A stretch of 57,054 bases of DNA from Mesotaenium endlicherianum (Eukaryota), in NCBI GenBank assembly GCA_009602735.1, contig WELA01001240.1, forward strand, positions 107,041-164,094, given 5' to 3'. Below the pieces are notes generated by a model. That model searched no databases and was not told the origin of the DNA. It saw only the letters and a list, made by a program, of their open reading frames with translations. Each line of letters starts with the position of its first letter. The stretch's first letter is position 1. Shown here in pieces: positions 2,100-57,054 of this stretch. The position numbers were made by a program, and so were the translations under genes.

Positions 2100-2760
2100 A
2101 CGCAAAGACAGGAAGACGACAGGCGTATGTACAGGAGCATAGACGTTAAGCGTACGTGAGCAGAGACGCAAGGCTACGCAAGCAGAGGTGGTGGGGGTAC
2201 GCGAGCAGAGATGGCGGGGGTACGTAAGCAGAGACGGCGGGGGTACGTGAGCAAAGACGGCAGGGGTACGCGAGTAGAGATGGCGGGGATACGCGAGTAG
2301 AGATGGCGGGGGTACGCGAGCAGAGACGACAGGGGTATGCGAGCAGAGACGACAGGGGTATGCGAGCAGAGACGGCGGGGGTACGCGGACAGAGACTCCA
2401 GGGGGTACGCGAGCAGAGACGACGGGGGTACGAGAGCAGAGATGGCGGGGGTACGCAAGCAGAGAGGCCAGGGGTACGCGAGCGGAGATGGCGGGGGTTG
2501 GCAGGAGTACGCGAGCAGAGAAGACAGCGGTACGCGAGCAGACACGGCGGAGATACGCGAACAGAGACTGCAGGGGTACGCGAGCGGAGACGGTAGGGGT
2601 ACCCAGAGCGGAGGCGGCAGGGTTACGGGAAGAGAGTCGACGGGGTATCCCGAGCAGAGACGGTAAGGGTACAAAGCAGTGTACGAATAAATCGCACATG
2701 CGGTCAGAGCGACCCAAGCATCTAACCCCGGCAAAGACAGGAGTACGTCAGAGAGAGGGA
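2100..2760. repeat. GC-rich minisatellite, ~21-22 bp unit (consensus ~CGAGCAGAGACGGCGGGGGTACG)
   Basis: More than 20 tandem copies are directly visible; the core is 2170-2670 with degenerate flanks. The repeat explains the overlapping repetitive ORFs here. Confidence 0.95.
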
Positions 2761-28546: not shown

Positions 28547-31228
28547 GGTATCCTATAGCCCCGGATCACATCTGTAGGGTTTCAGTTTAGTCGTGTAGCT
28601 CCGTATGCTACTACAAATAACAGTCTCTAGACTTGCTAAGAGATGCAGGCAACCTCAGACGGGTATACTTGGATGTTACACGAGCAGGTTCGATTGTCTT
28701 ACTGTCTTGAGTATGGGAAGTACAACCTATACAATGGCTCTCACTTAGTCAACAACAGCCTTTGTTCTTGGTCTACGGTGTTGGCAGTATCTCCCCCCAC
28801 AATACAATCTACTGCTTATAAGACGCAGGCACTTCCTTGGAGGACGTCAAATGGCTATCACTTGCCTCTTTCACAGTTGCACAAGATGCAGATCACTTCA
28901 GAAATCTAGGCGATAATTTGAAGAATCGCTAAGCAACCCCTTCTTACAATGCAGAGCAGAAATACTTCTTGAAATTCAGCTTGCAGGATCAAGGAAGATC
29001 AACTACGAATGAAGTCCGACGTACACTTTAACCAGAAAAAGAGCAAGCAGAAACTACTGCAATGCAGATAGAAAGATTATTGAGAGGAAATCGTATTCGT
29101 CTTTGACGAAAAAAGAGATCGAACTAGACGGCGTATGTTCTGCGGGAAGAAGCAGCACCCTACACGCCCCTCTGATCTCTGAAGGCTGAAGGCTGCTGTG
29201 AGGTTCACCAAGCTAATCTGAAAGGCAAATGGAGGAATCAAAATTCTCGAACTTCAGGCGCCTTTCCTTTTTTCTCCTCGCCAATCGCCAGCAGCGGCGC
29301 GTGTAAAGTGATGACAGCGGCCACCTCCAGGAAAAAGTTGAGCTAGCTGCAGGCGCCTCTGCCCACCTCTGCCCCCACCTCTGCCCCACCAATTCCAGAG
29401 GAGAGTCCCTGCCTCAAGGAGCCGCAAATACTCCGCCCCACCTCGCCCCGCTCCGACCCACTCCCCCCCTTCAAATCGCGATACCTCCGTACAGACTATA
29501 CGACCTCGACTAGAAGGAATCTTGCCGGGCTTCAGTACCAAGAGCGCTGTTGTGACGTGCTGTCGGACATGATCCAACCTCGACCCAACTCGACGCGCAC
29601 GTACTCTGACTCTATCGGCCACTATCGGCTATTATTATGCAAATTCGTCATAGTTTACATCAAATTATTCGAGGCACTCTGTCGGGCTCAAACATGACCT
29701 AAGCACGTGTTAGAAGAAGAGTCCTACCGCCCGTTTAAAATAGTAACCCTACCGCAATGGCTGGCGGCAGGTTGTAACTGATGGGAGTCTGGTACATGGG
29801 GGGAATTTGGCGCTATTTAACCGGATGTCCATATTCTGGTCACTACATAATTTTCCAGACTTCGATTTCAGGTCGTCACTCATTCATATGTTTGCTTCAT
29901 AGTAGCATTCTAGTTTCTAAACATTAATGTGTGCTTCTATATTATGGTCGTTCGTTTAACTTTAAAGTCACTAATTTTCCCGGGAGTAATCCTGAAAGCG
30001 TAAGCCCCCCATGGTCTGGTAGCAGTAGGTATTGATGAGTGCGAGTTGATACCTTGCTTTGACTTATCTACTTGCTTTCCAGCGTAGATATGACCAGCAA
30101 AGCTTTCAGAAGAAATGCGAAGGTTGAGATTGGTTGGGATAGGTTGAGACGGCCCAGCATAGAATACGCCATCGAAGGTCCGGAAATTGAAGTACAAAAT
30201 GGAAAGGGTGTGCACGGTCATAGTTATTACAACGGCACCTAAAATTACCGGAAAATAGGTGTCCAAGTCCGTTCCAGGGAGCACCAGGGAGCAATGCAAC
30301 GCAAATTTGTGCCTGCTGTTGATTTTTGCATATGAATGATGATTTCGAAATTTGCATCATTTCACATGAACTGTGATCACTCTGATTGGGACTTTGTTTC
30401 TGACGCTTCTACCGACTACAGACAGAGTTGGCCAGAGTGAGATAGACCACGTAGCACGTCGACAGCTAAGAATCTCTAATGCCGCCAAGTGGAGGCCAGT
30501 CTAAGCTCCCTGACCGTGAGAGGGCGGGACCTGCAAAGCTGCTCCAGTGTAAGAGAGGGTAAGAGAGCCATGATCGTGAAAGCGAGCGCTAGTTTCAAAT
30601 TCGGATTGCGCAATGCGGCAACTGATGAAGCGAGCACCTTAGTTAGCTAGCCTTGCAGTGAACGAGCAGGAACTATAACACATTCATAGCCGATGACCAG
30701 ATCTCTTATGCAGATATCCCCATGCAGCAGCAGTCGTACAATCAAGACAGCTGGATTGGTAGTTAAGAAAATTTCGAATAACTGCATATGGTTCTAATAT
30801 GACCTGAAACTTTGAGTACGTTCATTGAGGTATCCGCCATTTGGTGTAGGCCTGACGAGTAACTAGGTCATCATATTGATTGTTATTGGAATATCAGCTG
30901 CTTGACGTAATCCCCTCGAACTGAATATTCTATGGGTCCAGTTACTGTGAATAGCCAGATGGCCCCAATTGTGTACTATGCTTACTTTTTCACTAGAGGC
31001 TTCAAGCGTAGCGATCAAGCTGGCAGGTGATTAAATTAGAAAGGCTTATTAGGCCACAGAGGGATTGACGAGGGATTGAAGAGGGAGTCCATTGTAAGCT
31101 CGTCTGTCAAAACTGGCAGTACTGAGTAGGCACCCATGACAGCAACCCCTTCGCGTGCTACATTGCTACGTTGAAAAATCGAGGTCTTTTGTGTGACCTG
31201 GCACATTCAGTAGTGACTAACAACTCAG

Positions 31229-39952
<8,724 letters not shown>

Positions 39953-41661
39953 AGCCCAAAGTTGAAGGCCTAACCCCTAGGCTCAAAACCTTCGGCTAAA
40001 AAGTCATAATTTCTACCAAATGGCAAGGAGCCAAATTTTGTCAGCATGTAAAGTTTAAGGTTCAGTTGAGTATTTATGTCGTCAGACATTCTCTGGAGGT
40101 ATTTGCCCTTTGTCTCGCAAGTCACCACCTACGCTCTCCTAAATCTAGGTAGGAATGCCAAATGGCTAGCTATAGCAAAAGAGAAATAGTATTTATTCCA
40201 ATCGTATTCTCAGAAAATGTTGCAACCTGCCCGCGAGGTTCGTCACGTGGTCCTTGAACTCTCTCATTGTCAGGTCCAAGTGAAAGTGATCACATCTAGT
40301 AGCTCTTCACAGACGTGGATTTGGAAGTGCATGCACTTAGATGTGGAGGTCCTTTTGCTTTTCAATCCCTTGTCCTCAGACCCCGAACCCGTAGACTAAG
40401 AGTCTAAGACCGCTCCGATTCTCCACGGTAAAAGGCTTCTTAACTTGTCAAGTGGGTCGCATAGTTGATGCCTTGGCGAGGAGTTAGATGTACGACTCCC
40501 TAGATGAGGAATTCAAGAAGTCGATACTCTAGACTTTTGAAGGATGAAACTCTCGCCTTGGCCTTAGAAGTAGCCTACTTGGAACTTGCACCCTATGGTG
40601 GCACCGTGGCACCCTCGTGCATTTCTTGATCACCGGGACAAGTCTTTTGCTAGATCAAACAACCTCGACCTATTTGCTTGATTGTGAGTTCATTACACAA
40701 TCATGACTTGTAGAATATGCAATTTTTGTGTGTTGAAGGCGTCAAATTAGTATGGTAGTGCTGCGATACTTTACGCTTTGACATAATTGATGCCAACATA
40801 AGTATGGAGTATGCACTACACGCAACGTTCCAATCTGCACCATGTGGGTGCATCATAAAAGCAATTTAGAAAAACACACATACATAGAAGACCGTTGAGC
40901 TTTTAGGGTTTTCGACTCCATCAATGGTCTTGAACGACAATAATGTTTCTCAGTAGGTAGGTTGAAGGGTGGGAGCTCGGAACTTGTCAAGGGGGTACGC
41001 TTTCAAGTCCTTTCAAGGCTCCACATGCGCATGCAAGCATTTTTAAGCTCTAGTCTTGGTACCTCATACGCACTCGGCACCAAGCCTTAACAAATTAAGA
41101 CTCTCAAGTTTACAAGCACGCACTAAGAATTTGCAACACAAACTTAAATACGCTTACTTTCAGGTACAATGATAGGCTTACATGGCGACCCCCGTCACCA
41201 AACTTATTGTACGCAAAGCTTCGCACTCCATTGCTCGCTCGACAATTTCAACTCAACTAAGGCTTGCACCGATAATTAGCACCAATGTCACAAATAGCAC
41301 TAATGCCACAAGAAGCAACTTGGTGTGCTAAGTGGCTGCGACTTTTCAAAAGCTTTGATTGGAAGTCGTGCACAAAGGTGTCGTGCCTAGTCGTGTCGGA
41401 GCACGTGTGCCATCGACCATGTTGATGTGTCGGCGATCCTTCGCTCATGTGTGCTTTGCCTGGTCCACTAGTCGGTGCATCCCTGCACGTGGGGAATCAA
41501 CCTGGTAGATCGACCTCCGCGCATTTTTGGTCTGCCTGCACTCATGCTGCAAGTGAGTGAAGCCAGCATTTAGTGTTCTCACTTCAAGCTCTTCTTCTCT
41601 CACTTCCTATTTCACAATAGTATATTTGCAACAAGTTTTCTACTGCTCATTTTCCTTTACA

Positions 41662-41673
41662 CCCCTCCCTTTC
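41662..41673 (-). other. Polypurine tract of the outer element, followed by the TG start of the presumed 3' LTR at 41661
   Basis: The minus strand reads GAAAGGGAGGGG|TGTAAAGG, ~65 nt after the PHD stop codon. Confidence 0.7.
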
Positions 41674-41738
41674 ACCTGAGACGTCCCCGTCTCTTAGCTA
41701 TAAGTTGTTTTTTGTTTATCAACCTTTCAATTAGAAGG

Positions 41739-41881
41739 TTAAGGAAAGCAGTGAAGGCACTCCCATTGCCCTGCCATAATCTCTTCTTCACCAAGGCAGA
41801 AAGTGTGCCATTGGGCACCACACTTTTTGCAGGTCACCATTGCCTCTTGATCATCCAGCACTTTGCACCTGGCACAAGGTG
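41739..41881 (-). pseudogene. PHD finger (C4HC3) at the C-terminus of the outer element's integrase
   Basis: Manual translation: PCARCKVLDDQEAMVTCKKCGAQWHTFCLGEEEIMAGQWECLHCFP*. All eight Zn ligands are present, plus the conserved W before the last Cys pair. Confidence 0.9.
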
Positions 41882-42235
41882 CCTAGCTATGGAATACCTA
41901 TTTGGAGAACACGTAAAACGAATACGTATTGCAAAAATAGGTGTAAAAAATGGCAATACGTGTGAGATACATTCTTCCAAGATTCTCGCAAAAATCGACA
42001 GGGCTTATAACTTCCAAATTGCTTAGAAACTTCGAGCGCAATTGGTTGCAAATGGTAGAGGACTCACTTTGCTGTGATATGAAGGTGGTGAAAGTAAAAA
42101 ATCATTGTTACATTTTCAAACCGCCGAAGATTCATTTTTACTTCGTCAAGACGCGTATTTTGAGTATTTTGAAAATGTCGAAATACGTGGTGGAATACGT
42201 CGCTCACGGACCGATACGAGTATTCCATAAATAGG
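41882..42235. mobile_element. 354-bp non-autonomous TIR DNA transposon (MITE) with an 8-bp TSD
   Basis: TSD ACAAGGTG at 41874-41881 and 42236-42243. Left end CCTAGCTATGGAATAC; reverse complement of the right end CCTATTTATGGAATAC (14/16). Removing it restores the frame KLVPATPCARCK. Confidence 0.9.
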
Positions 42236-43449
42236 ACAAGGTGTAGCTGGCACCAATTTCTTGGGCTCAACCCTAATAGTAGGATCAATTTTTCGCAGAT
42301 GGCAAAGCAAACAATTCTGCACATGACCTCTCATGGTTTTTCCATTTGAGCCTTCCAGCTCTAGCACACTCTTTCCAAATGCATGTTTCACACGCAAGAT
42401 CACTGCAAGTGAACTGGTGTCGATGATGGTCTTGGTCTAGCAATTCCTGTAGACGAAATCTCTTTTTGGATCTGCGTCATCTGTAGCCAATAACCCCCAG
42501 CCCGTGTCTTTGCGTAGCATTGGTTATCTCGCTTCTAAGCAATCTTCAAGTTGTCCAAAGCAGCTGGCATCGTGCGTTCAAACAATGCCTTTCAACGTAC
42601 CATGACTTTTACCAGCTCTTCTAGGCTGTCCGGGTTACTCACCTGCTCAATTTCCATCTTGATGCTGCTTGGCACCACAGGATTTCTTCCAAACAATATC
42701 TCATATGGTGAGTAATTCGCCAAGGCAGCCTGCTTGATGAACCTGTAATCCATTACCAGCCATGGCAGGGCCAGATCCCAGTCTCGCTTATCATGTTCCA
42801 GACGGTACTTTCGTAATGCCAACTTGATGGTTTGCACCATCCTTTCTGCTTGACCATTTGCTTGTGGATGGTCTCTGGATGTAGTCCGATCATCAATGAA
42901 GCATTTATCCAAGAGCTTTTGGAAAGACCTTTGGGACTGAGACCCTGGTCTGTCAGCACTTCTGCTGGAGCTCCATGACGCATAATCACATTGTTGAGAA
43001 GCGCTTCCGCGGTTCCCATACTCTCTTTAGCAATTAAAGGGACAACCTCTATCCACTTAGAGAAATGCTCAATCATGACCATAATATATTTATTTTTTCG
43101 CTTTGACAACGGTAGCTCACCAACGAGGTCGCACCTTTAGCGGTAGCCTAGGCCCATGATCGGCAGAGGTTGCAAGTGCAGGTGTTGTTAGTTGAAACCA
43201 GCCTTGACGCAATATCATCTTTGGCAGGTTTTGACCACATCTTTGCACTGCTGCTTTATGCCGCTCCACCAGAAAGACAACTCCAAAAGTTAATGTTATT
43301 TGGGCACCATAGTGTCCAGTGTTCTCGTGCATATCTTGCACCAGAGCTCGTCTCTTGATAGGTTTTGACATTAACTTTTCTTGGCCATTCTTTTCAATTT
43401 TGAAGGGGTTATTGCGTTTCCAGCAAAACCTTTTGGCTCGATGACTCAC
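42236..43449 (-). pseudogene. Integrase of the outer element (frameshifted)
   Basis: DMHENTGHYG; KYIMVMIEHFSKWIEVVPL...RHGAPAEVLTDQG; TTSRDHPQANGQAERMVQTIK...WDLALPW...SPYEILFGR; tail LELEGSNGKTMRGHVQNCLLCHLRKIDP. Confidence 0.9.
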
Positions 43450-43469
43450 CTAGTCTCTCTCTTTTGGAG

Positions 43470-44350
43470 ATAATAGTTTTACTATAATCCTTCACAAACT
43501 TACAATAGTTCCGCTTAGGCCCAATAGAACTCTCAGCTTAGACGCATTCGCAGGTGCAGGATTCTTCTAAATGGCCTCAATCTTTACAATCTGAGGGGAC
43601 ATAGCGTTGTTCTCAATCTCGTGACTTAAAAAAGGCACATGTGCCTCAAAGAACCTGCACTTTCCAAGATGCAGCGTCATCTAGAATTTCTTTAAGCGCA
43701 AAAACACTTGTTCCAAGTGCTCAAGGTGCTGTACGAGTGACTTACTAAACACCACAACATCATCAAGATATGGTTTTGTAAAAACCAGGCCCTCCAGCAC
43801 CTTATCCATAGTTCTTTGGAACATGGCAGGGGAATTTTTCAGCCTGAAGGGCATCACTGTCCATTGCCATATCTCTGTTTGAGCCCAGAAAGCGACCTTA
43901 CCTTGATCTTCTGTTTTTGTAGGAATCTGGTTGAAGCCTTGCCGCAGATCAATGATGCTGAACAACTTTCCGGTGGTGGCAATTGAGAAGAACCACTCTG
44001 GCATGAGCATAACATAGCTATCTAGCTCTGTGGAATTTAGTCGCCTGTAGTCACCACACATGCGGGTGGCACTGTAAGTGCCAGCCTCGTCTTCCTTTTC
44101 TACTACTATTGTGAAAGCTCCATGTACTAAGGTTTATTTTTCAATCATGCCAAGATTGTGTAGCTCTTGGCAGGTCTTCTCCACACAGTTCCACTCTGTT
44201 GGGCTGAGCTAATGCGGCCCAACATAATTGTCAGTGTTTAGTGTGACTTCACATGCAATTCACTGCCAATTTCCTCCTTTGTAAAGGCAAACACCTTTTG
44301 GTGCTTCTTTAGCAGCCTTTCTACTTGTGCCTTTTGCTGGGCAGAGGCCA
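43470..44350 (-). pseudogene. Reverse transcriptase of the outer element
   Basis: MCGDYRRLN, FSIIDLRQGFNQI, WTVMPFRLKNSPAMFQRTMD, YLDDVVVFS, GKCRFF, LLGLS..YCKFVKDYS. Confidence 0.92.
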
Positions 44351-46519
44351 TTTTTGCAATGGTGAACATCTATGTTTCAGGCTACTTCTCTCCACCAAAA
44401 ACATCTAGTAATTGCTATTTCTTTGGTTTGGGTCGAGGATGTTCACCCCCATCTTCTCCCTCTAGCTTTTCAGCCTGATTGCTTGGTGGTGGAGTAACAA
44501 GCTTTACAGCCTGGTCCTCCTAGGGTTTAGGCTCTTCAACTTTTCTCTTCAGAGGCAGGTTTCTACCTGAAGGTCGGTGTTTCTCCCTTCCTGTCAGGTG
44601 CTTCAATCGCCTCTTAACGGGTTGCCAGAGCCATCTCCGCTCATCTTCAGCCGTCCAGCTAAAGCCTGTTTCGCCTTCTTTGAGTTTGGGGCACACTACG
44701 ATTGGCCACCCAGCTGCGTCCACATTAGCAGGTCTGGGGCCCACTGTCTATCCCCACTACTGCTGGATATTTGTCAGACGTGCTGCTGTTGTTCCACGGG
44801 ATTCTCCCAATGGCGGCATAAACGTCCAGACTCAAGTGGCGTATTGTAGCTGCTGCACTTATGCAAGTCAGTTGCACACGGCGCTCTCCTTGGTAAGGAG
44901 TTGTACCGTCCTTCTCAAGGTGTTGAGTTCTTGTTTCATGACTTATGTCGCTCCAAGTGTTGGCTCAGCCCTTCCCCTCTTTTGAGAACTGGAAGGCTAA
45001 ACATAGGAATGCAAATATTCATCTCAACAGCTTTGCGCAACACGCCTCCTTCTCCCTCCTTTCCAAGATATCTTGGATAATCTTGGGTGGAGGGCCGGTG
45101 GCTCCTTTCGGAACACCCTCTATGTGCGCTTCACCTCTGTATTTCACATTGCGCTCAAATGTACGTCGACAGGTAGCATCCCTTCTTGGGCCACCTTTCT
45201 TGGCTTCTTTACAAAAGCCCCTGGTCTCTCTTGCACTGGCTCCTTCTTGGCAGTGCAACGTGCTAGTTCTGGTGGTCGTTGCAGCTGGTCGTTGGTAACG
45301 CGCTCCAAAGCAGCACTGGCAGCAGTAGGCAATCTTAGCTCCTTGTATAGATCTTTAGGATGGGGCCCCTCCACTGTCAAGCTGTCAATTAGCCATTTGC
45401 CTACTCGCAAAACCAACGCAGAGGGGTTAAGACAAGGAAAGTCAAAACGTGCATGGGAGATCATTCTCAATCTCCTTTGTGTCTGCCAGCTCTGGCAATT
45501 CCATTTCTGGAAGGTCAGGCACCTCCGCCTCTGACGCTGTTGGTTTCTCCACTTCTGGCAGTGGCGGCTTGTCTTCTTCCTCCTGTTGATAGTCATCATG
45601 TTAGTGATGACCGCTTGCAGAGACTGCACGGCTTGCGTCATCTTCTCCTCGCAACGTTTTGCCGAGTCTGTCTCCATAAGCTAGTCCATCATCTGCCTGG
45701 TGATTTTTCCAGCCATCAAGCAAACGGCACCCAGCTAGCACTCCTCCTTGGTTGGTGTTTGACCAGATGTGTGGAATGTCTCGGCCAATTTCTTGACCAA
45801 CTCCACTTTATAGTCCTCCATGGATTCTTCCAAGCAGATAGTCTGCCTAGGCTTCTCTGCTGAGGAAGAGTCAGATTTTGCTGAATCCTGGCTGTTGGCT
45901 TTAGCCCATTTGCCAATGTTGCACTTGCGCTCCTTGGGGCCTCCTCAAGGCTTTCCCAACCTGGGGTCCCATTTGACCATTCTGGCGATGGCGGAGCGTA
46001 GCGTGGGTTTGTTTCCCAACTGTTGGTGTCAACTTCTAGCGTTCGCGTCCAATTCCTGTGCCCAATCTCCACTTCCGTAGAGTCTGACTCAGAGGTGGTA
46101 TTATGTCATGGATTCTCCCTTTCTAAAGGTATGTCTCTGACTGGTAGGTCTTCTCTCACAGGCGGTATTGGCTGCCCTTTCAGACGTCTCTTTTCCCCTA
46201 GTGGTCTCTCTTTTCAGGGGTAGTGTGGACCTTCAATCCAGGCTCATTTTTCCGCACCAATGTGATTTCCCTTTCCAAAGACTTCTCATGCTCCTGCTTC
46301 TGCAAAGGTTCTCTCTGTCATGCCCACCTCCATATATGGAGTGCTTGTGCCCCTGACTTCACTGGACGCATTTTTGCACGTGGAGATCACCTCCAAACGT
46401 CTGCGCAATCTTCTTTCTGGCCTCTAGTCTGAAGTGTACACAGCTACTTCCAACACGCGGATAGCTAATGGTGCTGGTATAGGTCCCTCGTGGAAACTCA
46501 GTTGCTGCCAAGTAAGTAT

Positions 46520-47072
46520 AATCTTCACCAACCCCGTCGTGGTGTGTTTTCCAATCATATTGCCATGGGCCTTGGCAATTGCCTTTTCTCCCATTGCGTC
46601 GACTAGTTGACGAGATATATTGTCTGGTATTTCCAAACATCTCCCTTTCTCCAGATAATTTGGCTCTCGCCAGACAAAATTCTCATTGTCATCCCTGCTC
46701 ATTCCTTGTCCTCCAACTTTGAAGGCCCTGGACTGAGGGAATGCTGTGAATGTGGGCAGAACCTCCCTTGGTTCTCCGTGTGTGTTGATCTGGTACTGGT
46801 AGTAAGGATCTTTCTTGGTCACTCCCTGGTTTGAACTCCCAACGTTTCACCCCCTGGGCGGACGTCTGGTACTCGTTGCATTGATGGCTCCATCCTTCTC
46901 AGGACATGTGGGGAATACCGTTAGTTCAAAATATTTTGGCACGTTGTGACGATCCTCCATGTCATGCATCATTGAGCAAGACGTAATGACCCAATGTTGC
47001 CTCAAAAACCAGCCATGGATATCCTGGCTGTATTTGGTTATATTTTAGGCCCGGGTGTACATTCTCCATGCA
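46520..47072 (-). pseudogene. C5-DNA methyltransferase, C-terminal half (motifs VI, VIII, variable region, IX, X)
   Basis: MENV at 47069-47058; LGHYVLLNDA*HGGSSQRAKIF*TN at ~46995-46920; EPREVLPTFTAFPQSRAF; WREPNYLEKGRCLEIPD; AIAKAHGNMIGKHTTTGLV. Confidence 0.75.
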
Positions 47073-47777
47073 TGAAATGAATCGACTTACTAAAAAGGCG
47101 ATTAATAATTAATGAAGATCTTTATATCAGCAAGTAATCTTCATGGTATTTTCTGTAAATTGATTAAACAGCAAAAGACAATACACTAGCAGTGGACAAT
47201 ACTCGTAATGGAAGAAAACTAGCATCAATAATGCAATCAGTAAACTCACACATAAGCAAGGCCAGGAGACAGTGCATACCAATGACTTCTCGCCTTGGAT
47301 TCAGATCTCTCTCAGTAAGCAGTACCAGAGAGTTGGCCTCGTTTTCAAATGCCGAACTTGAGAGCAATCCTAGCATATGAACATGGAATGAGTTTATTGT
47401 TCAACGGCCAGTGCGATGGCACCGCCTACCCGGGAGTTAACCACGTTGGTAGGACCTTGGTTAACCAAATCCACCACCATCTCCCATCATCCCGAATCGC
47501 CATCCATCCTGAGGATGTCATCTGGCCATTCATCTAGCACACCACACTTAGATGCATATCTAGGCAGTTTGTTGCTACCGAGTACGGAAGTCAGCTGGCT
47601 GTCAAAGAATGTGTCAGCAAGCTGACCTAAGATGACTTCAGCCTGCTGCCCCCGGCTGAGTCATTAAACTCATTATGTCATAAAATCCAGTAGATTCAAT
47701 ATTAACTAAAATTCAGCACGCTGAACTTATTTAAGTATTAAATTTAAATGAATATTATATCAACCAATATACTGATT
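47073..47777 (-). repeat. 3' LTR of the inner element (7 nt missing at its inner end)
   Basis: Direct repeat of 52772-53477. By eye there are roughly 45 substitutions plus a few small indels (~93% identity, approximate). Confidence 0.95.
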
Positions 47778-50700
47778 CAGTTTGTAAGCATTCTGCTGTA
47801 TCCTGCTGACATGTTCAGTTTGTAAGTATTCTGACCGACACGACGCACCACCAAATATGCACCGACCCAGACAGGATCAAGCTTTTTCTTGACCACACCA
47901 GGTAGGTACAGGTGCTGAGAATACGATTTGACCAAATCGCCCTTAGAAAATGTCAGTTTGCGACGGTGCTGATTAGTGTATTTTTGTTGGTTTGCCTGGG
48001 CTTTGTGCAGGTTCTGTTGGACTTCTGAGCCTGTCAGCAAACTCCTGGGTTAATTGGAGGGAGATCGGATTGTCAATCCCTTTAGGGTGAGTTAAAGACT
48101 CCCCTAGTATATCTGAAGGAGACTTAGGGACTCTACCCAGACTCAATTCAAAAGGAGTCTTGCCCGTTGACGGGTGCACCGCACTGTTGACCGCAAACTG
48201 GATTTGAGGTGACAGGTCATCCCAATTATCTTGCTTTTGGTTAATATAGGCTCTCAGTACCTCTTGCAAAACTCAGTTACTTCCTTCAGTCTGCCCATCA
48301 GTCTGAGGGTGGTTTGCTGTGCTGAGCAGCTGCTTGACTCCCATTAACCCCATTAAAGTTCTCCAGAACTCCGATGTAAATTTTGAGTCTATGTCTGAGA
48401 TGATAGTAGAGGGTAGCCCATGTTGGCATACTACATGGTTGTAGAACTGCCTCGCTGTTTCAAGTGCAGTTACTTTGACAGTTGTGGGGATGAAAATGAC
48501 CATTTTGTCAATTTATCCACTACTACCAGTATTGAATCATGCCCATCGGCGGTTCTTGGTAGTGTTACCACCCAGTCCATAGATATTGTTTCCCAGCGGC
48601 CAGCTGGGATGAGCAGCGTTGTAAGAGGCCCCCCGGTGGTGTGTGCCTAGACTTATTCCTTTGGCACTGGTCACAGGACTTAACGTATTTCAAGACCTCC
48701 AGAGGTAATCCCTCCCAATGATAATGTTTTGCCAGTTTGCCAACAGTTTTGGCCTGCCCCAAATGCCCACCCAGTAAACTGTCATATGCTTGACTCAGTA
48801 AACAGGACCTTATTTTCAAGTTATTAGGAATGACCAGCTACAGCCTGCCTGAAGTGGTTTCAGTCACCCAGACCCCATCCTTAAGCCTATACTCGAGTGC
48901 AGTAGCAGGACACACACCATCAGTGTAGCTGGGCTCAAATGTTGGGTCAGAAAGGTAGGCTTTCCTAAGTTGTTCAAGGAAGGACTTTTTCACCTTTAGT
49001 GAAGTGAGTGCACAAAGGACGTTATCTACAGTATGCTGACTAAAGTTCCTTTCTTGCAAGTCAGGTCTTCTAGAGAGTGCATCAGCAGGATTCAACTTCC
49101 CTGGTTTGTAGTCGATTTGGACTTGGAACTGCTCCAGCATCTGGCTCCAGCGGTTCTCCCTCCTCGACAGCTTGGACTTCTTCTGAAAGTGGGTCAGAGC
49201 TAGATGATCTGTAATCACCTTAAAAGCTTTACCATGTAAGTATGCTCTCCACTGTTTGAGTACATGAATGATAGCTAGCAGCTCTTTATCATGCACTGAG
49301 TAATTAATCTCCGCTGGATTAAATTTCATAGACTCATACAACACCGGATGCCACTCCTGCCGTACCTTACCATCCTTTGTGGTTTTGTCAGCAGGCTGCA
49401 ACAAAATAGCACCCATGGCAAAATCAGAGGCATCAGTAACCACCTGCACCGGTTTGCTGGGGTCATACACGGCTAGCACTGGGGCAGAACAAAGGGCATC
49501 CTTAAGGATTTGGAAGGCAGCCTGCTGCTCTTCCCCCCACACATACCCTATGTCTTTCTTGGTAAGGTCAGTCAATTTACTGGTCTTTGTAGATAAATTC
49601 TCAATAAATCTTCTATAGTAGTTAGCCTACCCAAGGAAAGATGTATCTTCGGAGACAAATTGTGGTATAGGCCAGTCCCTTATGGTCTGGACCTTCTTAG
49701 GATCCACACTGATGCCTTCTTTGCTGACAACATGGCCTAGAGATTCAATGCTTTCTTTGAAGAAATCACACTTGCTCATTTTAGCATACAACTGGTTCTT
49801 TCTCAGAGTGTCCATGACTGTCTTCAAGTGTTCAACATGCTGAGCTTCATCCTTAGAGAAAATTAAAATATCATCCAGGAAGACTTGCACAAACTTATCC
49901 AGGGAAGGTCTGAAATTGTCATTCATAGCATTCATGAAGGTTGCAGGAGCATTCGTCAGTCCGAATGGCATCACGTTGAACTCATAGTGTCAATAACGTG
50001 TGCGAAAGGCACTCTTGTGTTCATCCCCCTCAGCAATTTTGATTTGATGGTAACCATTCTTGAGATCTACCTTACTGAACACTTTAGCACCAGACAGGAT
50101 ATCAAGCAAGTCCTTCTGGGTAAAGCATACTTGTTCTTCAATGTAATTCTGTTAAGAGCTCTGTAATCAACGCACATCCGCATGCTCCCATCCTTTTTCT
50201 TAACAAAGAGGATGGGTGCGCCATAAGGTGATTTACTAGGGGAAATGTAACCATTTTCCTCAAGTTCTGCAATCTGTGGTTTCAACTCTTCGCTCTCCAC
50301 ATAAGACAAGCCATAAGTGCGTTGCCAGGGTGGCTGACTCCCAGGTAATAAGTCAATCCTGTGATCCACTTCCCTCATAAGAGGTAGTCCTGGAGGCATA
50401 TTTGAAACATGAGTGAGTTGAGCAACAATTTTTGCAGCAGTAGGGTGCTCCGGAGGGATTACCTTTTTTTCAACCACTTCCTCAAGTTGAGGAGGTAACT
50501 CTCTTAGCAGAAGACAGAACACTCTGTCTTCCTTCTGGTTTCAGCTGTCGATGAACTCCATTGCATTCAGCAATTTGCATCCTCCTAGAAGCCTCTTCTT
50601 TTTCTTCATTTGCCATCCATACAAGACAAGAGGAAGAGCACTGGTGGGTGCCAAGTTAGTCTGCCCATCATTGGCTCCTCTCACTTTAACTGTACCTTTG

Positions 50701-51527
50701 CTCCAACAGACTTCAGCTTGATGTCTATCAAGCCAGGACCTGCCTAGCACGAGATCATAGAAGCTTGTGTTGAGTACCTCAAATGTAAGCGATTTAGTTA
50801 GAATTGCAATGCCAGAACCTAACTGAACCTCAATAGGCTTGGTTATAATTCCTCCCAGGATGCTTGAGGCATCTCCAAGGAATATTTTTCTATTCCCTTG
50901 GGTGACAGTAGGCAGCCTTAGCCGCTTAACTAAGTCCTTGTGGATAAAAGTATGTGACGCCCCTCCGTCAACAGATGCCCTCACCTTCTTGCCTGCAATA
51001 ATGCAATGCAGTAGGATAGGAAGGGATACCTTTTCCTGACTTTTGCATTGTTCTTCTGACTTAGCAAAGAAATGTTCGACATCAGGTGGAACAAGATCAT
51101 CCAGAGTGTGCACTTTCCGGAGATCTATATTGCTGATGGTCTCCTTTATCTGGTTGTCAGGCATGCATAGTGAATCCAGTTCAGCAGGACCCATAATACC
51201 TGCTACGAGGGCAGGTAGTGACGACTCACTATCTCTAGCATCCTCACAATCAGTAGACTGGATTACTGACTGTTGCTGTCTTTTAAAGGCTGGTCTTTTC
51301 TCTCGACCTTTGGGAGGTGCTTGTCTGGACACTGCTCTCTTAGTGACCTGTCTGCTGGCAATGGAAGCAAATCGATTTTGTTGAGGCTGGTCTCGGCTTA
51401 GTCCTACCACCACCTCTTCCATAGCCGCCTCGAGAGAAACCACCTCTCCCTCTAGACTGTATAGCATTGTACTCATACCCATATTCATCACCCTGATCAT
51501 CCTCAGCCTGGTCTCCTTCAATTGCAT
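47778..51527 (-). pseudogene. pol of the inner element: protease, RT, RNase H, integrase (fragmented)
   Basis: VDGGASHTFI...[49 protein letters not shown]...[22 protein letters not shown]...DKELLAII...NPADALSRRPD; GGHLG...SCDQCQR; HGLPSTIISD..SKFTSEFW...HPQTDGQTE; DPVWVGAYLV. Confidence 0.93.
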
Positions 51528-52737
51528 TGTAGAAACCGTGGGGTTTTGACAACCTTAGACACCAAAGCATTACTTTGGCGCTTGTGATTGAATTGCTGCT
51601 GATCCCAGGCATTAGCATCCTAGATCAAGTCAACCAATATCTCATATTTTTTTTCAGCAAAATGACCTAAGACCTCAAATTTCAACCATACCTGAAGTAT
51701 GCTATCATATATTGCTCTGGCAAGTCTGGCTGCTTCATCATGTTCTCTTGGAACTTTTGAGCAAACTCAGCAACTGAAGTGGTCTGCTTCAGTGTCAGGG
51801 AGATCATCGCATAGATAGCTTTCTCCTGCTGGTTGATGACATCAAACTTCTCATGCAACTTCTCGACAAACTCTACCCACATAGGGTCACCGAGTTGCCG
51901 AGCCTTACGCTCTTCCTTCCAGTACAACCACCAGTCTGCAGCACTCCCTTTCAGTAGCGCACCGGTGTGCCTGACCTTCTCGTAATCTTGCAGTTCTGGG
52001 TAGTTCTCCAGCCACTGCTCAACATCCGCGAGAAACTTGATCAGGTAATATTTTGTGTTTCCCTCAGGATCATAGTCCTGGGGAGGTTTCGGCTTGGGCT
52101 TACTAGTCCCTTTGCCACCACCACCCGTGGTTTGAGAACCCAGTTGGTCTCGGTCTCGCAGTAGAGACATTATGATTCTTTTGTCATCCTGTTGAGATTG
52201 GTACATGCTCGCCATTTGCGATTGCATTTGCACAAACAATGCTCCCAAATCCACACTCTGAGGTGGGAGTCTAGCAAATGCAACAGCAGCATTGGCATCT
52301 ACTCGTTGAGTAGTGTCCTCAACAGTCCCTCTCGCTCCTGGAGCAGCAATTCCTACCGCATTCAGCCGGTCACGAATTTGACCTAGGGGCACATTGAGTT
52401 GTACAGCAAGAGGTGGATTCAAAATATTGGCCCTTGATGCCATTAGTTCTTTGACAGTGCGCTCGTCCGCTGGCTGTCCTTCCCTCCTTTCTGGATCTTC
52501 AACGACTTTTGCTAATCTCTCAACTTCTAATCTGGCTCTCTCCTCCTCAGCCTGCTGTGTTGCGATTGCGGCAATAGCAGCTGCCTCATCTGCAGCCTCT
52601 CTTGTTGCAGTATCTGCCACTGCTTCGGAATAGGTACGGGTTCCTGCTACATGGCTTTCAGCCTGATTTTCAACATTCTCGTTATCCTGGTTCTCCATGT
52701 CTCGGGAGTTGCTAGTTTGAGACCTCGTCTTTATCAT
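51340..52737 (-). pseudogene. gag of the inner element with zinc knuckle
   Basis: 351-aa ORF 52737-51682 (LLKGSAADWW...LKQTTSVAEFAQKF...YFRYG), then a frameshifted RGG-rich stretch and CFHCQQTGH*. Confidence 0.88.
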
Positions 52738-52758
52738 ACAAAGAAGACTGTGATAACT

Positions 52759-52770
52759 GCTCCGATACCA
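52759..52770 (-). other. Primer binding site (tRNA-iMet type)
   Basis: Minus strand TGGTATCGGAGC, 1 nt from the 5' LTR; 11/12 match to the canonical plant TGGTATCAGAGC. Confidence 0.9.
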
Positions 52771-52771
52771 C

Positions 52772-53484
52772 TGAAATGAATCGACTTACTAAAAAGGCGA
52801 TTAATAATTAATGAAGATCTTACATCAGCAAGTAATTTTTATGATATTTTCTGTTAATTGATTAAACAGCAAAAGACAATACACTAGCAGTGGACAATAC
52901 TTGTATGTCAAATGGAAGTAAACTAGCATCAATAATGCAATCAGAAAACTCACACATAAGCAAGGCCAGGAGACAGTGCATATCAATGATTTCTCGCCTT
53001 GGATTCAGATCTCTTTCAGTGAGCGGTACCAGAGAGTTGGCCTTGTTTCCAAATGCCGAACTGGAGAGCAATCCTAGCATATGTGCATGGAATGAGTTTA
53101 CTAGTCAACGGCCAGTGCGATGGCACCGCCTACCCGGGAGTTAACCACGTTGGTAAGACCTCGGTTAACCAAATCCACCACCATCTACCATCCCAAATCG
53201 CCATCCATCCTAAGGATGTCATTTGGCCATTCAGTTAGCACACCAAACTTAGATGCATATCTAGGCAGTTCGCTGCTACCGAGTACAGAAGTCACCTGGC
53301 TGTCAAAGAATGTGTCAGCAAGCTGACCTAAGTTGACTTCAGCCTGCTGCCCCCGGCTGAGTCATTAAATTGATTATGTTATAAAATCCAGTTTTTCAAT
53401 ATTAACTAAAGTTCAGCAGGCTGAACTTAACTAAGTATTAAATTTAAATAAATATTATATCAACCAATATACTGATTTATTACA
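52772..53484 (-). repeat. 5' LTR of the inner element
   Basis: The plus strand begins TGAAATGAATCG and ends TTATTACA. It is a direct repeat of 47073-47777. Confidence 0.95.
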
Positions 53485-53865
53485 ATGCGGCACATACACA
53501 GGTGGGTCCACATGATATTTCAGTACGTGGTTGATGGTTTTCACAATCTGTTTCCGATGTGCTGCACGTGTCGTTAAATCCTCTCATCCTTCCGACCTGC
53601 GAGAATGGCTAGCATGAAAATCCAACAAAGACTCAGTCAATGTTGTAAACATTCAAAAAAGGGGATGTACCTTTACAATGTTTTATCCATAATTCGGGCA
53701 ATCTAAAAATCCGGAGGCACTAAGTCTTGGAAATTCAACATTCGTCGCATCTCGTACTGCGGTGATGTCGTTATCCACATAGATGACTTTGGCCACTTTC
53801 ATCCCTCTCTGAATTATTGCCATTGTTCTTGAGCAGAGTCTCGCAAACAACTCCAGCACAACCAT
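53485..53865 (-). pseudogene. C5-DNA methyltransferase, N-terminal half (motifs I-IV)
   Basis: VVLELFARL (motif I FxGxG-like, G>R), VIYVDND (motif II-like), and ID*VFVGFSC*PFSQVGRMRGFNDTCS at ~53640-53560 (motif IV, consensus GFPCQPFSxAG..GF.D.R). Confidence 0.8.
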
Positions 53866-54158
53866 TTCTAATCGGAACGGTTCATCCGTTTAATGGGTGC
53901 TTGTGTATGATCCGCCACGAGGCTAGATGCGGCGCATGCGACACATTGCCGAAATGCGACGGAAATGTTGGTTTGAATGTGGATAAGTACAATTGGCGCG
54001 CAATCAAAGTACCTCAAGTTACCTTTTCATTTGTATCGTCACAGCTTGAGCCAATGGCGCCAATCCTGGCATCAGGTTAAACGCAGAAGTGACTAGATGT
54101 GGTATCGGCAACAGCTCTTGCTAGCTGAAGTCCATGTTACTCATAGTTTCTTGTTGCG

Positions 54159-55085
54159 TCATCCTCCCAGGTTGCCGCAGTAATGGTCTAAACGTACATT
54201 CTTATTTAGTGAGGTGTAGACGTGAGCCTCGCTTTGCAATGCCTCATTAATTTTCCTCGGATGAGATGTTGAGGTAAAACAATGCACTAACTCAGAAGCC
54301 GTCTCGCTGTTGCATACCATCTTCACATGAATCTCTTCCGTGGATTGTCTGCCTGTCTGTTGGTAGGTCACCTTTTGCATACCTGGGGGAATCAGGTCTT
54401 TTGTCCCCAGGATAACGTCATAATTCTCTTCTTTTGTAACAGTACACTCTATCATAATTGTTGCTTTTTCAAGTTTTCCCCGAATTTACTGTGATCCAGA
54501 CAGGCTTACGAGTGAGACCGCAAGACTTAGAAACCTGTCCTGATGCAGTCCTCAATTGGAAAGGGCTTTCTTCTAGTCCCTCTTAGTCAATCCCAGAGCT
54601 TTCACATCTCTTTTTCCCACGACGATTGACTGTACTCCCGTATCCAGCAAGATATTAGATGCAGTCCAGTTGTTGAACTTCATGGCGCCATCCTTCTTCT
54701 GCACTTTCACAGTGTTGAAATTGGTTGGCAATGAGGCACAATTTGCACCCTCCTCAGCTATATCTAGTTGTTTTTTGGCTTCTTCAGCCGTGAAAGGAAA
54801 AGTGAGATTAAGATCGGCTAGCGACAGCAATTTAACATGCTGTATCCGATTTTCCACCAAAGCTCTCAGCTTCTCTTGCAAAAAGCTGACTTGCTTGCGC
54901 GTCCCTGATCTAGTCTGGCGTAGCTTAGCAATCTCGTCCTTGTCCAAGGTGATCCTAAAGGTTTGGGGAAGCTTTCCAGCATTCCTAAGGACCAAAGTCA
55001 CCAAACAGTCATGATCTGCTTGCTCTTTGGCTACTGCGGCCATTGCCTTCTCAGGTATTGCCTTTGCGCCTTTGCATACGCACAA
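54159..55085 (-). pseudogene. Retroviral-type aspartic protease region of the outer element
   Basis: NILLDTGVQSIVVG, with YDVILGTKDL downstream. Confidence 0.8.
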
Positions 55086-55140
55086 CCTTTTCTGCTACAT
55101 CTGCATTATAATACACGTTTGGAGGGTCTAGTTTTGCAAA

Positions 55141-56525
55141 CTAAGCTTTGAGTCCAGCAATTTTTGCAGTCATAGCATCATACTTATGGTTACCCTTCCG
55201 GCGACCAGAGTTATCTTTTTCCATCTTTTTACCCTTATCTGCCTCTTGCATGGCAATATTAGCCCAAGGAGGCTTCACATTTGGGTTCTTAGACCACCAC
55301 TCATCTTCTGAGTATCCCTTCTTGACATTATGTGCACGTATTTGTGTGTTGCTAGCAGACAATTGCTTATCATCAGGGTAAGGACAATCTCTCTTCTAAT
55401 GTCCTGATTTTCCACAATTCCAATAGTCTTTCTGCTGTTTCAGCAGTGTTGGCATGTTTTGCAAACTAGTTAAAGGCTTACTTCTCTTGAAAATTAGAGC
55501 TAGACGCCTTAGGTGAGGAGAATTTCTTGTTCTTCTTAGGAGCCATAAGCGGCCTGGATGCCTCTTTATACCAGACTTTACCTTCTTTGATGTTGCGTGC
55601 TATTTCAGCAGCCTCGTTGACTAGTCTCGCGCTTTGCAGACAGGTGTGGCCTGACTTCACGATTTGTTTTTTTGCCCTAGCATAACATAAATATGTCAAC
55701 CACAATCCTGGGCTCGTAGATTCTTGCTTTTATCAGCAAGATCTACTAATCAAGACTTGACTTCCATGACGGTTTAGTTCTTCTGACGAACAAAATGCAC
55801 ATAACAGTGCACTTTCAGACTGCGATCTACAGGGAGGCGTTCTTCCAGCAACTTTGAGAACTGACGCAGGCAATGGTCAAGGTCAAGTTGGTCATCCCTT
55901 GCTTCTATGACCCTTCTGCAACCGCCCAGTACTTCCGCGTGACGGGCTTCAGCGGTATCACTATTGCCGTTTTGACCACTGAATGATCCTCTGCGCGTCA
56001 GCTCTTGAGCATTCGCAACCTTTTCAGACAAGTCTGCGCACAACTTCCGCAATTTTCTCACGGATCCAGCTTCATCATCATTTTCAGCAGCGGCCCTTCG
56101 CTGGCCATCAATAAATTGTAACAGGGCATTGGTTATTTCTTGTGTTAATGCATCTATGTTTAAGCTCTCAACAAGTGCAGCAGGCACCGCTCTTTCTGAA
56201 GACAAAGCAATCTTTTGGCTTTAGCAGCCTTTCTTTGGATTTTCAAATCCCTTGCCTTCTTTTGCTTTTTGAAATTCCATTCCTGGGTAAGGTCTTCCTA
56301 CTTTCGGAATTCACGATAGAGTAGCAAGACACCCTTATCCAAGTACTGAACTAGGCTTATGAATGCAATCGACTGCGTGTATGAAGCATCCTTCCGGATC
56401 TTTTCAAAGAAATCCGCCCAACAGATCTCATCGAACTCTTTGAAAGAGAGACTATCATCGCCTGTTTGTCCACTAAAACACTTTGAAGACAACTTAGAAT
56501 TCTCATCTTTTTTGTCACTAGCCAT
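55141..56525 (-). pseudogene. gag-like region of the outer element with decayed zinc knuckle(s)
   Basis: Run of minus-strand ORF fragments from an ATG at 56525. YWNCGKSGH*KRDCP at ~55425-55381 is a CCHC knuckle with its first Cys mutated. A possible second knuckle reads KKGYSEDEWWSKNP. Confidence 0.7.
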
Positions 56526-57054
56526 CTCTGTCGTGCGTTAAGAGGTCGAGCGCATCATTGGCACAGGCTGCAATGAGGTCTATAATACATGTGGCTTTAT
56601 AACCAAAAAGGGAATCAAGCGTCAAATGTTTTAACTAAGGGGTGTGTACTCTTTAAAGTGAGCACCTCAAGATTGTAATCCGGTAGGAAAACAACTAATG
56701 AAGTCTCGTCCAAAAGATCACTGGAAGCACATCATGATCTTCAAGAGTAGTCCCATGCAAGGGTTCAAGCTGTGACTTTGCTCACCACTTGTGAAGTTCT
56801 TCAAGTGATTGGAAGCCATGAGGGCTTGCTCTTCACAAGAGGGAGACTAAGTGGTCCTGAAAACAAAAGAGATAAAAGTGTAAGCTTCTACTGATAACTT
56901 TGTGTCTTACAACTGGCATAATGGACTTTTAAAAAGATGTCTCTCTATGTAGTGATTTGAGATATTATATATTAGTATGCATATATTTTTATGTTTTCAA
57001 ATATATTTGGAGTAGTATTGTGTGGAGTCAAGTGTGAATAGGTACTCTAGTAAC

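What the first reader, a model, noticed from the sequence alone, without database searches (positions are those of the whole stretch)
41662..56558. One retroelement combining a DNA-methylation writer and a histone reader: candidate self-contained epigenetic module
Seen: gag-PR-MTase-unknown-RT-INT-PHD, all on one strand. Established: animal DNMT3 couples a C5-MTase to a PHD-like ADD domain that senses unmethylated H3K4. Inference, speculative: this element has assembled an analogous pair in one polyprotein. It could methylate its cDNA or its target site to mimic or evade host chromatin surveillance while choosing sites via the PHD. I cannot determine from the sequence whether this exact architecture is already described.
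Basis: inference. Interest (0 to 1): 0.8.

Follow-up and report, generated by a model that had tools for sequence, protein, structure and literature searches.

The report
Dead Gypsy-DNMT3 retrotransposon with PHD-tipped integrase
This is a broken copy of a green-algal jumping gene whose intact relatives carry both a DNA-methylating enzyme domain and a histone-reading finger on the integrase; the two likely act at separate steps (marking the new DNA copy, choosing where it lands), and the family is already partly described.

Summary
The domain order is real on the minus strand: zinc knuckle, protease, DNMT3-like methyltransferase, unassigned stretch, RT, integrase, PHD. This copy is dead. A separate 6.4-kb Ty3 element sits inside the methyltransferase, a 354-bp MITE separates integrase from PHD, RNase H is missing, and the frames are broken.

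Two intact proteins (P0115, P0120) share the order. They belong to one RT clade (100/97) in which every sampled member carries the methyltransferase. Of 83 such proteins with an integrase-tail hit, 68 end in a PHD, and 67 of these 68 keep the catalytic residues. The PHD is of the unmodified-H3 class (cage tryptophan absent in 63 of 64). A large branch with named chlorophyte members carries the methyltransferase between RNase H and integrase.

An ADD-like coupled module is not supported: the PHD sits on the integrase tail, far from the enzyme, and several lineages keep an intact enzyme without it.

Gypsy-DNMT3 (2018), PHD-bearing algal gypsies and writer-plus-reader 'EpiLTRs' (2026 preprint) are published. 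My searches did not find this pairing or the relocated branch in print. The scan noted the pairing twice before on other DNA. Verdict: new variant of a known kind.

The parts
41400..56560 (-). Outer Gypsy-DNMT3 element, decayed; both ends approximate, no terminal repeat pair found
   Evidence: host contig depth falls towards single copy below about 41400
55381..55422 (-). Gag zinc knuckle (CCHC)
54402..54710 (-). Aspartic protease
53558..53865 (-). DNMT3-like methyltransferase, first half (motifs I-IV), frameshifted, stop next to the catalytic cysteine
47073..53484 (-). Nested unrelated Ty3 LTR element (LTRs 47073-47777 and 52772-53484, 92% identical) inserted into the methyltransferase
46466..47067 (-). 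DNMT3-like methyltransferase, second half (motif VI seen by eye at the junction; target-recognition region by HMM and tblastn)
44370..46460 (-). Unassigned stretch, much longer than the same interval in relatives
   Evidence: no Pfam hit, no hit to fetched proteins, spacing, low host depth
43510..44214 (-). Reverse transcriptase; RNase H missing directly after it
42236..43473 (-). Integrase (zinc-binding part, core, C-terminal domain), frameshifted
41882..42235 (.). 354-bp MITE, 16-bp terminal inverted repeats, 8-bp target duplication
   Evidence: multicopy in the host
41748..41879 (-). PHD finger (Cys4-His-Cys3), unmodified-H3 class; this copy lacks the aspartate after Cys3 that relatives conserve

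Best explanation
The region is a decayed copy of a green-lineage Ty3/gypsy clade whose intact members encode a DNMT3-like methyltransferase and an integrase ending in a PHD finger, and the two domains likely work at separate steps: the enzyme likely methylates the newly made cDNA, and the PHD likely tethers the integration complex to nucleosomes with an unmodified H3 tail. Shown: the architecture, the clade, vertical inheritance of the enzyme, retention of catalytic and zinc-binding residues, and the decay of this copy. Inferred: protease processing separates enzyme and integrase-PHD in this layout; the cDNA is the substrate; H3K4me0 binding steers insertions away from H3K4me3 promoters, as a chromodomain steers chromoviruses.
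For: The PHD begins 12-23 residues after the integrase C-terminal domain in all PHD-positive proteins with that domain, the chromodomain position. One host contig joins the window's integrase tail to the PHD without the MITE. Closest solved PHDs are WSTF, KDM5 PHD1, BAZ2A/B, CHD4, AIRE, DPF and MLL3/4. Of 64 PHDs parsed, 63 lack the cage tryptophan and 59 have the aspartate after Cys3; the equivalent KDM5A residue D312 is essential for H3 binding, and this class lacks an aromatic cage. The enzyme keeps Cys, Glu, Arg, Arg in 156 of 159 domains. Its tree agrees with RT and integrase about as well as they agree with each other (19 and 24 versus 20 shared splits of 52). The enzyme occupies two positions in Pol and persists without a PHD, which fits independent jobs. 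cDNA methylation was proposed for such enzymes, and a DIRS-encoded DNMT3 methylates CG de novo. The PHD-bearing Chlamydomonas Gypsy-7a inserts intergenically 2.6 times more often than chance.
Against: No activity is shown for this family: the KnitGypsy-Dnmt3 domain gave no methylation in yeast, a result the authors call inconclusive. H3 binding is inferred from sequence only, and the window's own PHD has lysine in place of the conserved aspartate. The motif before the catalytic cysteine is usually Glu, not Pro (103 versus 44 of 159), and motif X Asn is variable. Protease cleavage sites were not mapped; in the relocated branch the enzyme lies about 200 residues before the integrase core and may stay attached. 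The Gypsy-7a bias may be selection, and its membership of this clade is untested. This dead copy is less CpG-depleted (0.50-0.68) than the nested enzyme-less element (0.35), which gives no sign of self-methylation.
Confidence: 0.6

Rival explanations
1. Tethered writer: the methyltransferase stays joined to integrase-PHD (most plausibly in the relocated branch), is carried to H3K4me0 chromatin, and methylates the insertion and its flanks during integration.
For: In 47 of 55 full proteins the enzyme lies between RNase H and integrase, about 200 residues from the integrase core. 68 of 83 keep the PHD, and no PHD-positive retro-polyprotein lacks the enzyme. H3K4me0 chromatin is where animal DNMT3 acts.
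Against: In the window's layout RT and RNase H lie between enzyme and integrase. The enzyme-integrase linker is long, variable and poorly conserved (identity 0.14-0.17 at deep divergence). PHD-less lineages keep the enzyme.
Confidence: 0.2
2. ADD-like allosteric module: the PHD binds and regulates the methyltransferase, and unmodified H3K4 switches it on.
For: DNMT3-type enzyme plus a reader of the same histone state; a related PHD regulates KDM5A allosterically; high co-retention.
Against: The PHD is a canonical WSTF/KDM5-type finger; neither PDB search listed a DNMT3 ADD among its matches. Algal DNMT3s lack companion domains, so it was not captured with the enzyme. About 1,000 residues separate the two in P0115 and P0120. 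13 of 13 PHD-less proteins keep the catalytic residues.
Confidence: 0.1
3. Passengers: the PHD is a generic algal transposon accessory, the enzyme is dispensable or acts on something other than the element, and co-occurrence is only shared descent.
For: PHDs are common in Chlamydomonas transposons. The Pleodorina protein P0009 has lost catalytic residues yet keeps its PHD. In the host, contigs at 80% identity or more pile up on RT, integrase and PHD (bins of about 3,000-26,000) but hardly on the enzyme pieces (114-864; single copy about 65-75), as if many sister copies lacked it.
Against: Both domains are conserved like integrase, far above linkers, with catalytic residues intact in 67 of 68. 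Purifying selection is reported for KnitGypsy-Dnmt3. The depth gap may only reflect faster divergence: the window's enzyme is 28% identical to P0115, against 33-49% for the other domains.
Confidence: 0.1

Closest known systems
KnitGypsy-Dnmt3 of Klebsormidium nitens (de Mendoza et al. 2018, PMC5890265; 'Gypsy-DNMT3' of streptophytes in bioRxiv 10.64898/2026.05.21.726589)
   Same: Gypsy Pol ORF with an intronless, non-rearranged DNMT3-type domain, in a streptophyte; cDNA methylation hypothesis.
   Different: The text and three held supplements never mention a PHD; I could not see Fig. 4c. The DIRS-like terminal repeats described there were not found here. Chlorophyte members and the relocated enzyme are not mentioned in the passages read.
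EpiLTRs of Cymbomonas and Euglena (bioRxiv 10.64898/2026.05.21.726589)
   Same: One LTR element combining DNA methyltransferase writers with a chromatin reader.
Gypsy-7a_cRei and REM1 of Chlamydomonas reinhardtii (PMC9940879; REM1 paper not held)
   Same: Green-algal gypsy elements with a PHD finger; a proposed role in avoiding harmful insertions.
   Different: No methyltransferase is listed for Gypsy-7a; its sequence was not tested. REM1 details are recalled, not read.
Chromoviruses (Ty3/gypsy with an integrase-terminal chromodomain)
   Same: Histone reader fused at the integrase C-terminus; works-like model for targeting.
   Different: PHD instead of chromodomain (two relatives have both); separate RT clade; carries a DNMT.
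Animal DNMT3A/B with ADD domain
   Same: Closest solved enzyme structures by sequence (E=1e-17); predicted same histone state read.
   Different: The ADD lies next to the catalytic domain and autoinhibits it (established knowledge; cited titles). Here a canonical PHD lies far away on integrase and is dispensable.

Membership tests
Gypsy-DNMT3 (KnitGypsy-Dnmt3 kind) | Ty3/gypsy Pol order PR-RT-RH-INT | tested here: met
   Order met in the window except RNase H, which is missing in this copy; complete in P0115 and P0120
Gypsy-DNMT3 (KnitGypsy-Dnmt3 kind) | Non-rearranged DNMT3-type domain inside Pol | tested here: met
   motifs in canonical order in relatives
Gypsy-DNMT3 (KnitGypsy-Dnmt3 kind) | Clusters with the Klebsormidium elements on RT or DNMT trees | not tested
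   No protein named as Klebsormidium was among those whose names I saw; nearest named relatives are Closterium
Gypsy-DNMT3 (KnitGypsy-Dnmt3 kind) | DIRS-like arrangement of terminal repeats | tested here: inconclusive
   No repeat pair for the outer element in the window; ends are decayed or beyond the window; no DNA of intact relatives obtained
Gypsy-DNMT3 (KnitGypsy-Dnmt3 kind) | Purifying selection on the DNMT | tested here: inconclusive
   Protein-level conservation only; dN/dS not computed; this copy is a pseudogene
Unmodified-H3K4-reading PHD class | Cys4-His-Cys3 zinc ligands | tested here: met
   Window: 8 of 8; relatives: 64 of 68 match a strict pattern
Unmodified-H3K4-reading PHD class | No aromatic-cage tryptophan two residues before the histidine (position recalled from methyl-lysine readers) | tested here: met
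   Window Gln; relatives 63 of 64 non-Trp
Unmodified-H3K4-reading PHD class | Acidic residues for H3R2 and K4 (Asp after Cys3; acid before Cys1) | tested here: inconclusive
   Met in relatives (59 and 48 of 64); not met in the window's own decayed copy
Unmodified-H3K4-reading PHD class | Measured binding to H3 peptide | not testable with these tools
   needs a binding assay
DNMT3-ADD module | ADD domain adjacent to the catalytic domain | tested here: not met
   Canonical PHD at the integrase end
DNMT3-ADD module | Reader binds and inhibits the catalytic domain | not testable with these tools
EpiLTR | DAM plus DNMT4-related DNMT plus chromodomain | tested here: not met
   No DAM or chromodomain hit in the outer element; the enzyme is DNMT3-type
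Chromovirus | Chromodomain at the integrase C-terminus | tested here: not met

The most novel reading that the evidence does not exclude
An ancient green-lineage gypsy clade, with hundreds of 50%-identity clusters, moved its DNMT3 from before RT to directly before an integrase tipped with an H3K4me0-reading PHD. This makes a mobile DNMT-integrase-PHD machine that docks on unmethylated-H3K4 nucleosomes and writes de novo methylation at the site where it inserts: a convergent rebuild of DNMT3-ADD logic, and a hidden source of de novo 5mC in chlorophyte algae.
Probability: 0.2. Interest if true: 0.8.

Novelty: new variant of a known kind. Interest (0 to 1): 0.45.

Why it matters
The role of retrotransposon DNMTs is an open question. 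This clade offers natural contrasts (enzyme with and without PHD, two enzyme positions, one catalytically decayed member) and many intact ORFs to assay. Precomputed Pfam labels miss the enzyme in 13 of 19 relatives found from the integrase-PHD side, so these elements are probably under-annotated in algal genomes. If the actively moving, PHD-bearing Chlamydomonas Gypsy-7a belongs here, the question becomes directly testable in a model alga. The window copy itself is a fossil with no expected function.

Tried and rejected
- No whole genome is held for the window, so copy number, young copies and flank methylation could not be surveyed.
- One search used the wrong reading frame and found nothing; it is uninformative. 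One search timed out.
- The metagenome scan with P0118 returned 70 loci, all distant gypsy matches (25-40% identity) with no DNMT or PHD hit. No DNA was obtained for dN/dS or terminal repeats.
- The viral-contig scan kept 80 of 345 loci, all weak C5-methyltransferase matches (best E=2e-15); none covers the domain closely and their contexts were not examined.
- No RNA holder was listed. Five RNA runs, read at 6-24%, gave almost no reads on the coding parts.
- The complex predictor was not available, so PHD-enzyme binding is untested.
- The AU test did not reject a tree with all PHD-bearing rows as one group (p=0.275). 'PHD ancestral, then lost' is the best tree but is not proven against 'PHD gained later'.
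- The unassigned stretch matched neither Pfam nor the fetched proteins and remains unexplained.
- CpG depletion gave no sign of self-methylation.
- The REM1 paper is not held. The Chlamydomonas supplement held is cut and gave no Gypsy-7a domain data.
- Rejected: a chance juxtaposition of fragments from different elements (intact single ORFs with the same order exist); RT, integrase or PHD belonging to the nested element (it has its own set).
Full report
Observation. Six-frame translation, Pfam, tblastn with relatives and profiles built from relatives place zinc knuckle, protease, methyltransferase, RT, integrase and PHD in the stated order on the minus strand. The methyltransferase appears as three ordered pieces of a 321-position profile (positions 2-41, 83-113, 216-283; E=3.4e-6, 0.023, 1e-9). 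The PHD keeps all eight zinc ligands.

State of this copy. Bases 47073-53484 are a second Ty3 element. Its LTRs are 655 of 711 identical, it has a 5-bp target duplication with one mismatch, and it has its own capsid, protease, RNase H and integrase. It groups with enzyme-less elements on the RT tree and splits the methyltransferase. A 354-bp MITE with an 8-bp target duplication sits between integrase tail and PHD. One host contig joins the two sides without it. RNase H is missing and the aligned pieces hold stops and shifts. No terminal repeat pair was found for the outer element. Five RNA runs, read in part, gave next to no reads on the coding region. The copy is dead. The neighbour is an intron-containing receptor-like kinase with a proline-rich N-terminus (kinase by Pfam; PERK-like by eye), and the nearest named relatives are from Closterium. 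The host is therefore probably a streptophyte alga (inference).

The family. An RT-integrase search returned 103 proteins; the six best all carry PF00145, and 9 of 103 do in all. A search from the integrase tail plus PHD returned 25 proteins: 19 retro-polyproteins and 6 host chromatin proteins. All 19 have the methyltransferase by my profile, only 6 by the precomputed Pfam labels, and 17 have the PHD. A profile search of 1.84 billion representatives gave 474 clusters at E<=1e-30, of which 150 were listed; I did not inspect the rest. Among 270 fetched proteins, 173 carry the enzyme and 83 have an integrase-tail hit (one, P0048, spurious). Of these 83, 68 end in a PHD; the only PHDs without the enzyme were the 6 host proteins. 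The sample is biased towards enzyme-positive elements, since most of it came from the DNMT profile. Named members come from Closterium, Pleodorina, Chlamydomonas eustigma and Scenedesmus.

Two layouts. Type A is PR-DNMT-RT-RH-INT(-PHD); P0115 and P0120 match the window. Type B is RT-RH-DNMT-INT-PHD; two of these add a chromodomain. A quick RT tree of 118 rows put all 28 enzyme-positive rows together (SH-aLRT 96). A careful tree of 55 rows (10 type A, leaving out near-copies P0002, P0003, P0011; 21 chosen type B; 22 chosen outgroups; two window RTs) gave 100/97 for the 32 enzyme-positive rows, 98/92 for type B, and 97/93 for a ten-row type-A set holding the window. The outgroup was not itself one side of a branch. 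An eight-row subgroup (100/100) has no PHD; four of the eight reach the integrase tail, the others are too short to judge. The best tree implies PHD loss there, but an AU test does not reject the alternative (p=0.275). On 55 full proteins, DNMT, RT and integrase trees agree to a similar degree (shared splits 19, 20, 24 of 52; patristic rho 0.60-0.70). The A/B split appears on the RT and DNMT trees but not the integrase tree. One capture followed by one move within Pol is the simplest reading.

Are the domains maintained? The catalytic Cys, Glu, Arg, Arg are intact in 156 of 159 near-complete enzyme domains, 67 of 68 PHD-positive ones and 13 of 13 PHD-less ones with an integrase tail. In pairs among 55 complete type-B proteins (not independent, cluster members included), at RT identity 0.80-0.95 (7 pairs) the enzyme is 0.78 and the PHD 0.83 identical against 0.48-0.52 for linkers. 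At RT identity 0.30-0.45 (917 pairs) the values are 0.41 and 0.47 against 0.14-0.18. This is protein conservation, not dN/dS; no DNA of intact members was obtained.

What the domains resemble. The enzyme's best solved relatives are DNMT3A/B/C (E=1e-17), then DRM and HhaI. The PHD's are WSTF, MLL3/4, DPF, KDM5 PHD1, BAZ2, CHD4 and AIRE. Of 64 parsed family PHDs, 63 lack tryptophan two residues before the histidine (cage position recalled), 59 have Asp after Cys3, and 48 have an acid just before Cys1. Passages of PMC4291147 and bioRxiv 10.1101/715474 describe this class as lacking an aromatic cage, preferring unmodified K4, and needing the equivalent aspartate. The window's own PHD lacks that aspartate.

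Mechanism. The PHD starts 12-23 residues after the integrase tail, so a targeting role like the chromodomain's is the most economical inference. In type A the enzyme lies about 1,000 residues upstream across RT and RNase H, and Ty3 Pol is normally cut into separate proteins (established knowledge). It also persists without the PHD. I therefore favour separate jobs (0.6): cDNA methylation and H3K4me0-guided insertion. A tethered writer, most plausible in type B, gets 0.2; ADD-like allostery 0.1; passengers 0.1. Against my reading: KnitGypsy-Dnmt3 was inactive in yeast; P0009 has a decayed enzyme with an intact PHD; this copy shows no extra CpG loss; and host contig depth is far higher on RT, integrase and PHD than on the enzyme pieces. 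The last may mean enzyme-less sister families or simply faster divergence under the 80% cut-off; summed depth is no copy number.

Literature. PMC5890265 (abstract, passages including section 9, sections 10-11, three supplements searched; figure not seen) describes KnitGypsy-Dnmt3 and the cDNA hypothesis, with no 'PHD' in text or held supplements. bioRxiv 10.64898/2026.05.21.726589 (passages) describes EpiLTRs, writers plus chromodomain, as distinct from Gypsy-DNMT3. PMC9940879 (passages; one cut supplement) describes active PHD-bearing Gypsy-7a_cRei and lists no methyltransferase. PMC6673714, PMC8557442 and bioRxiv 10.1101/2021.11.30.470311 (passages) call PHDs common in transposons. PMC12344493 (passages) places TE-borne DNMT3 in streptophytes and dinoflagellates and says algal DNMT3s lack companion domains. 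PMC6338049 (passages) mentions methylase-encoding elements in green algae in general terms. PMC6317226 (passages) has no PHD or methyltransferase mention. bioRxiv 10.1101/2024.12.19.629503 (two passages) was read for DNMT3 and H3K4. Searches found no paper stating the DNMT3-plus-PHD gypsy architecture or the relocated branch. Subscription papers, figures, bioRxiv supplements and repeat libraries were not visible and may contain it.

Verdict. Each ingredient and the writer-plus-reader idea are published; the PHD pairing, the chlorophyte range and the relocation appear not to be. Two earlier notes of this scan report the same pairing in other genomes; they are not counted as support. New variant of a known kind, interest 0.45.

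Noticed in passing
window 44370-46460: About 2.1 kb between methyltransferase and RT: roughly 800 codons from enzyme end to RT core, against 131-355 residues in type-A relatives. No Pfam or fetched-protein match; low host depth, but one other host contig carries part of it joined to RT.
   Followed up: partly
window 56567-56887 and 56948-57051: Two very high-copy repeats (summed contig depth 150,000-900,000 against about 65 for single copy) that also appear in RNA reads; they could be short mobile elements or part of the outer element's 5' end.
   Followed up: no
window 53966-54084: A short high-depth repeat with many loose ends between protease and methyltransferase; possibly another small insertion.
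   Followed up: no
window 31217-39282 (+): Host receptor-like kinase gene with a proline-rich N-terminus and microsatellite-rich introns (kinase by Pfam; PERK-like by eye).
   Followed up: partly
window about 28000-28400 (-): J-domain-like start of a gene seen by eye in the translation; no Pfam hit at E<=0.01.
   Followed up: no
window 2149-2695: Tandem array with a 23-bp period.
   Followed up: no
proteins P0006, P0104: Polyproteins with DNMT, integrase, PHD and chromodomain: one writer and two readers.
   Followed up: partly
protein P0009 (Pleodorina starrii): Methyltransferase motifs IV, VI and VIII are degenerate while the PHD is intact.
   Followed up: partly
proteins P0098, P0040: Unrelated gypsy polyproteins labelled with a SET domain (PF00856) and PF05869 (an adenine methylase family, label recalled).
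   Followed up: no
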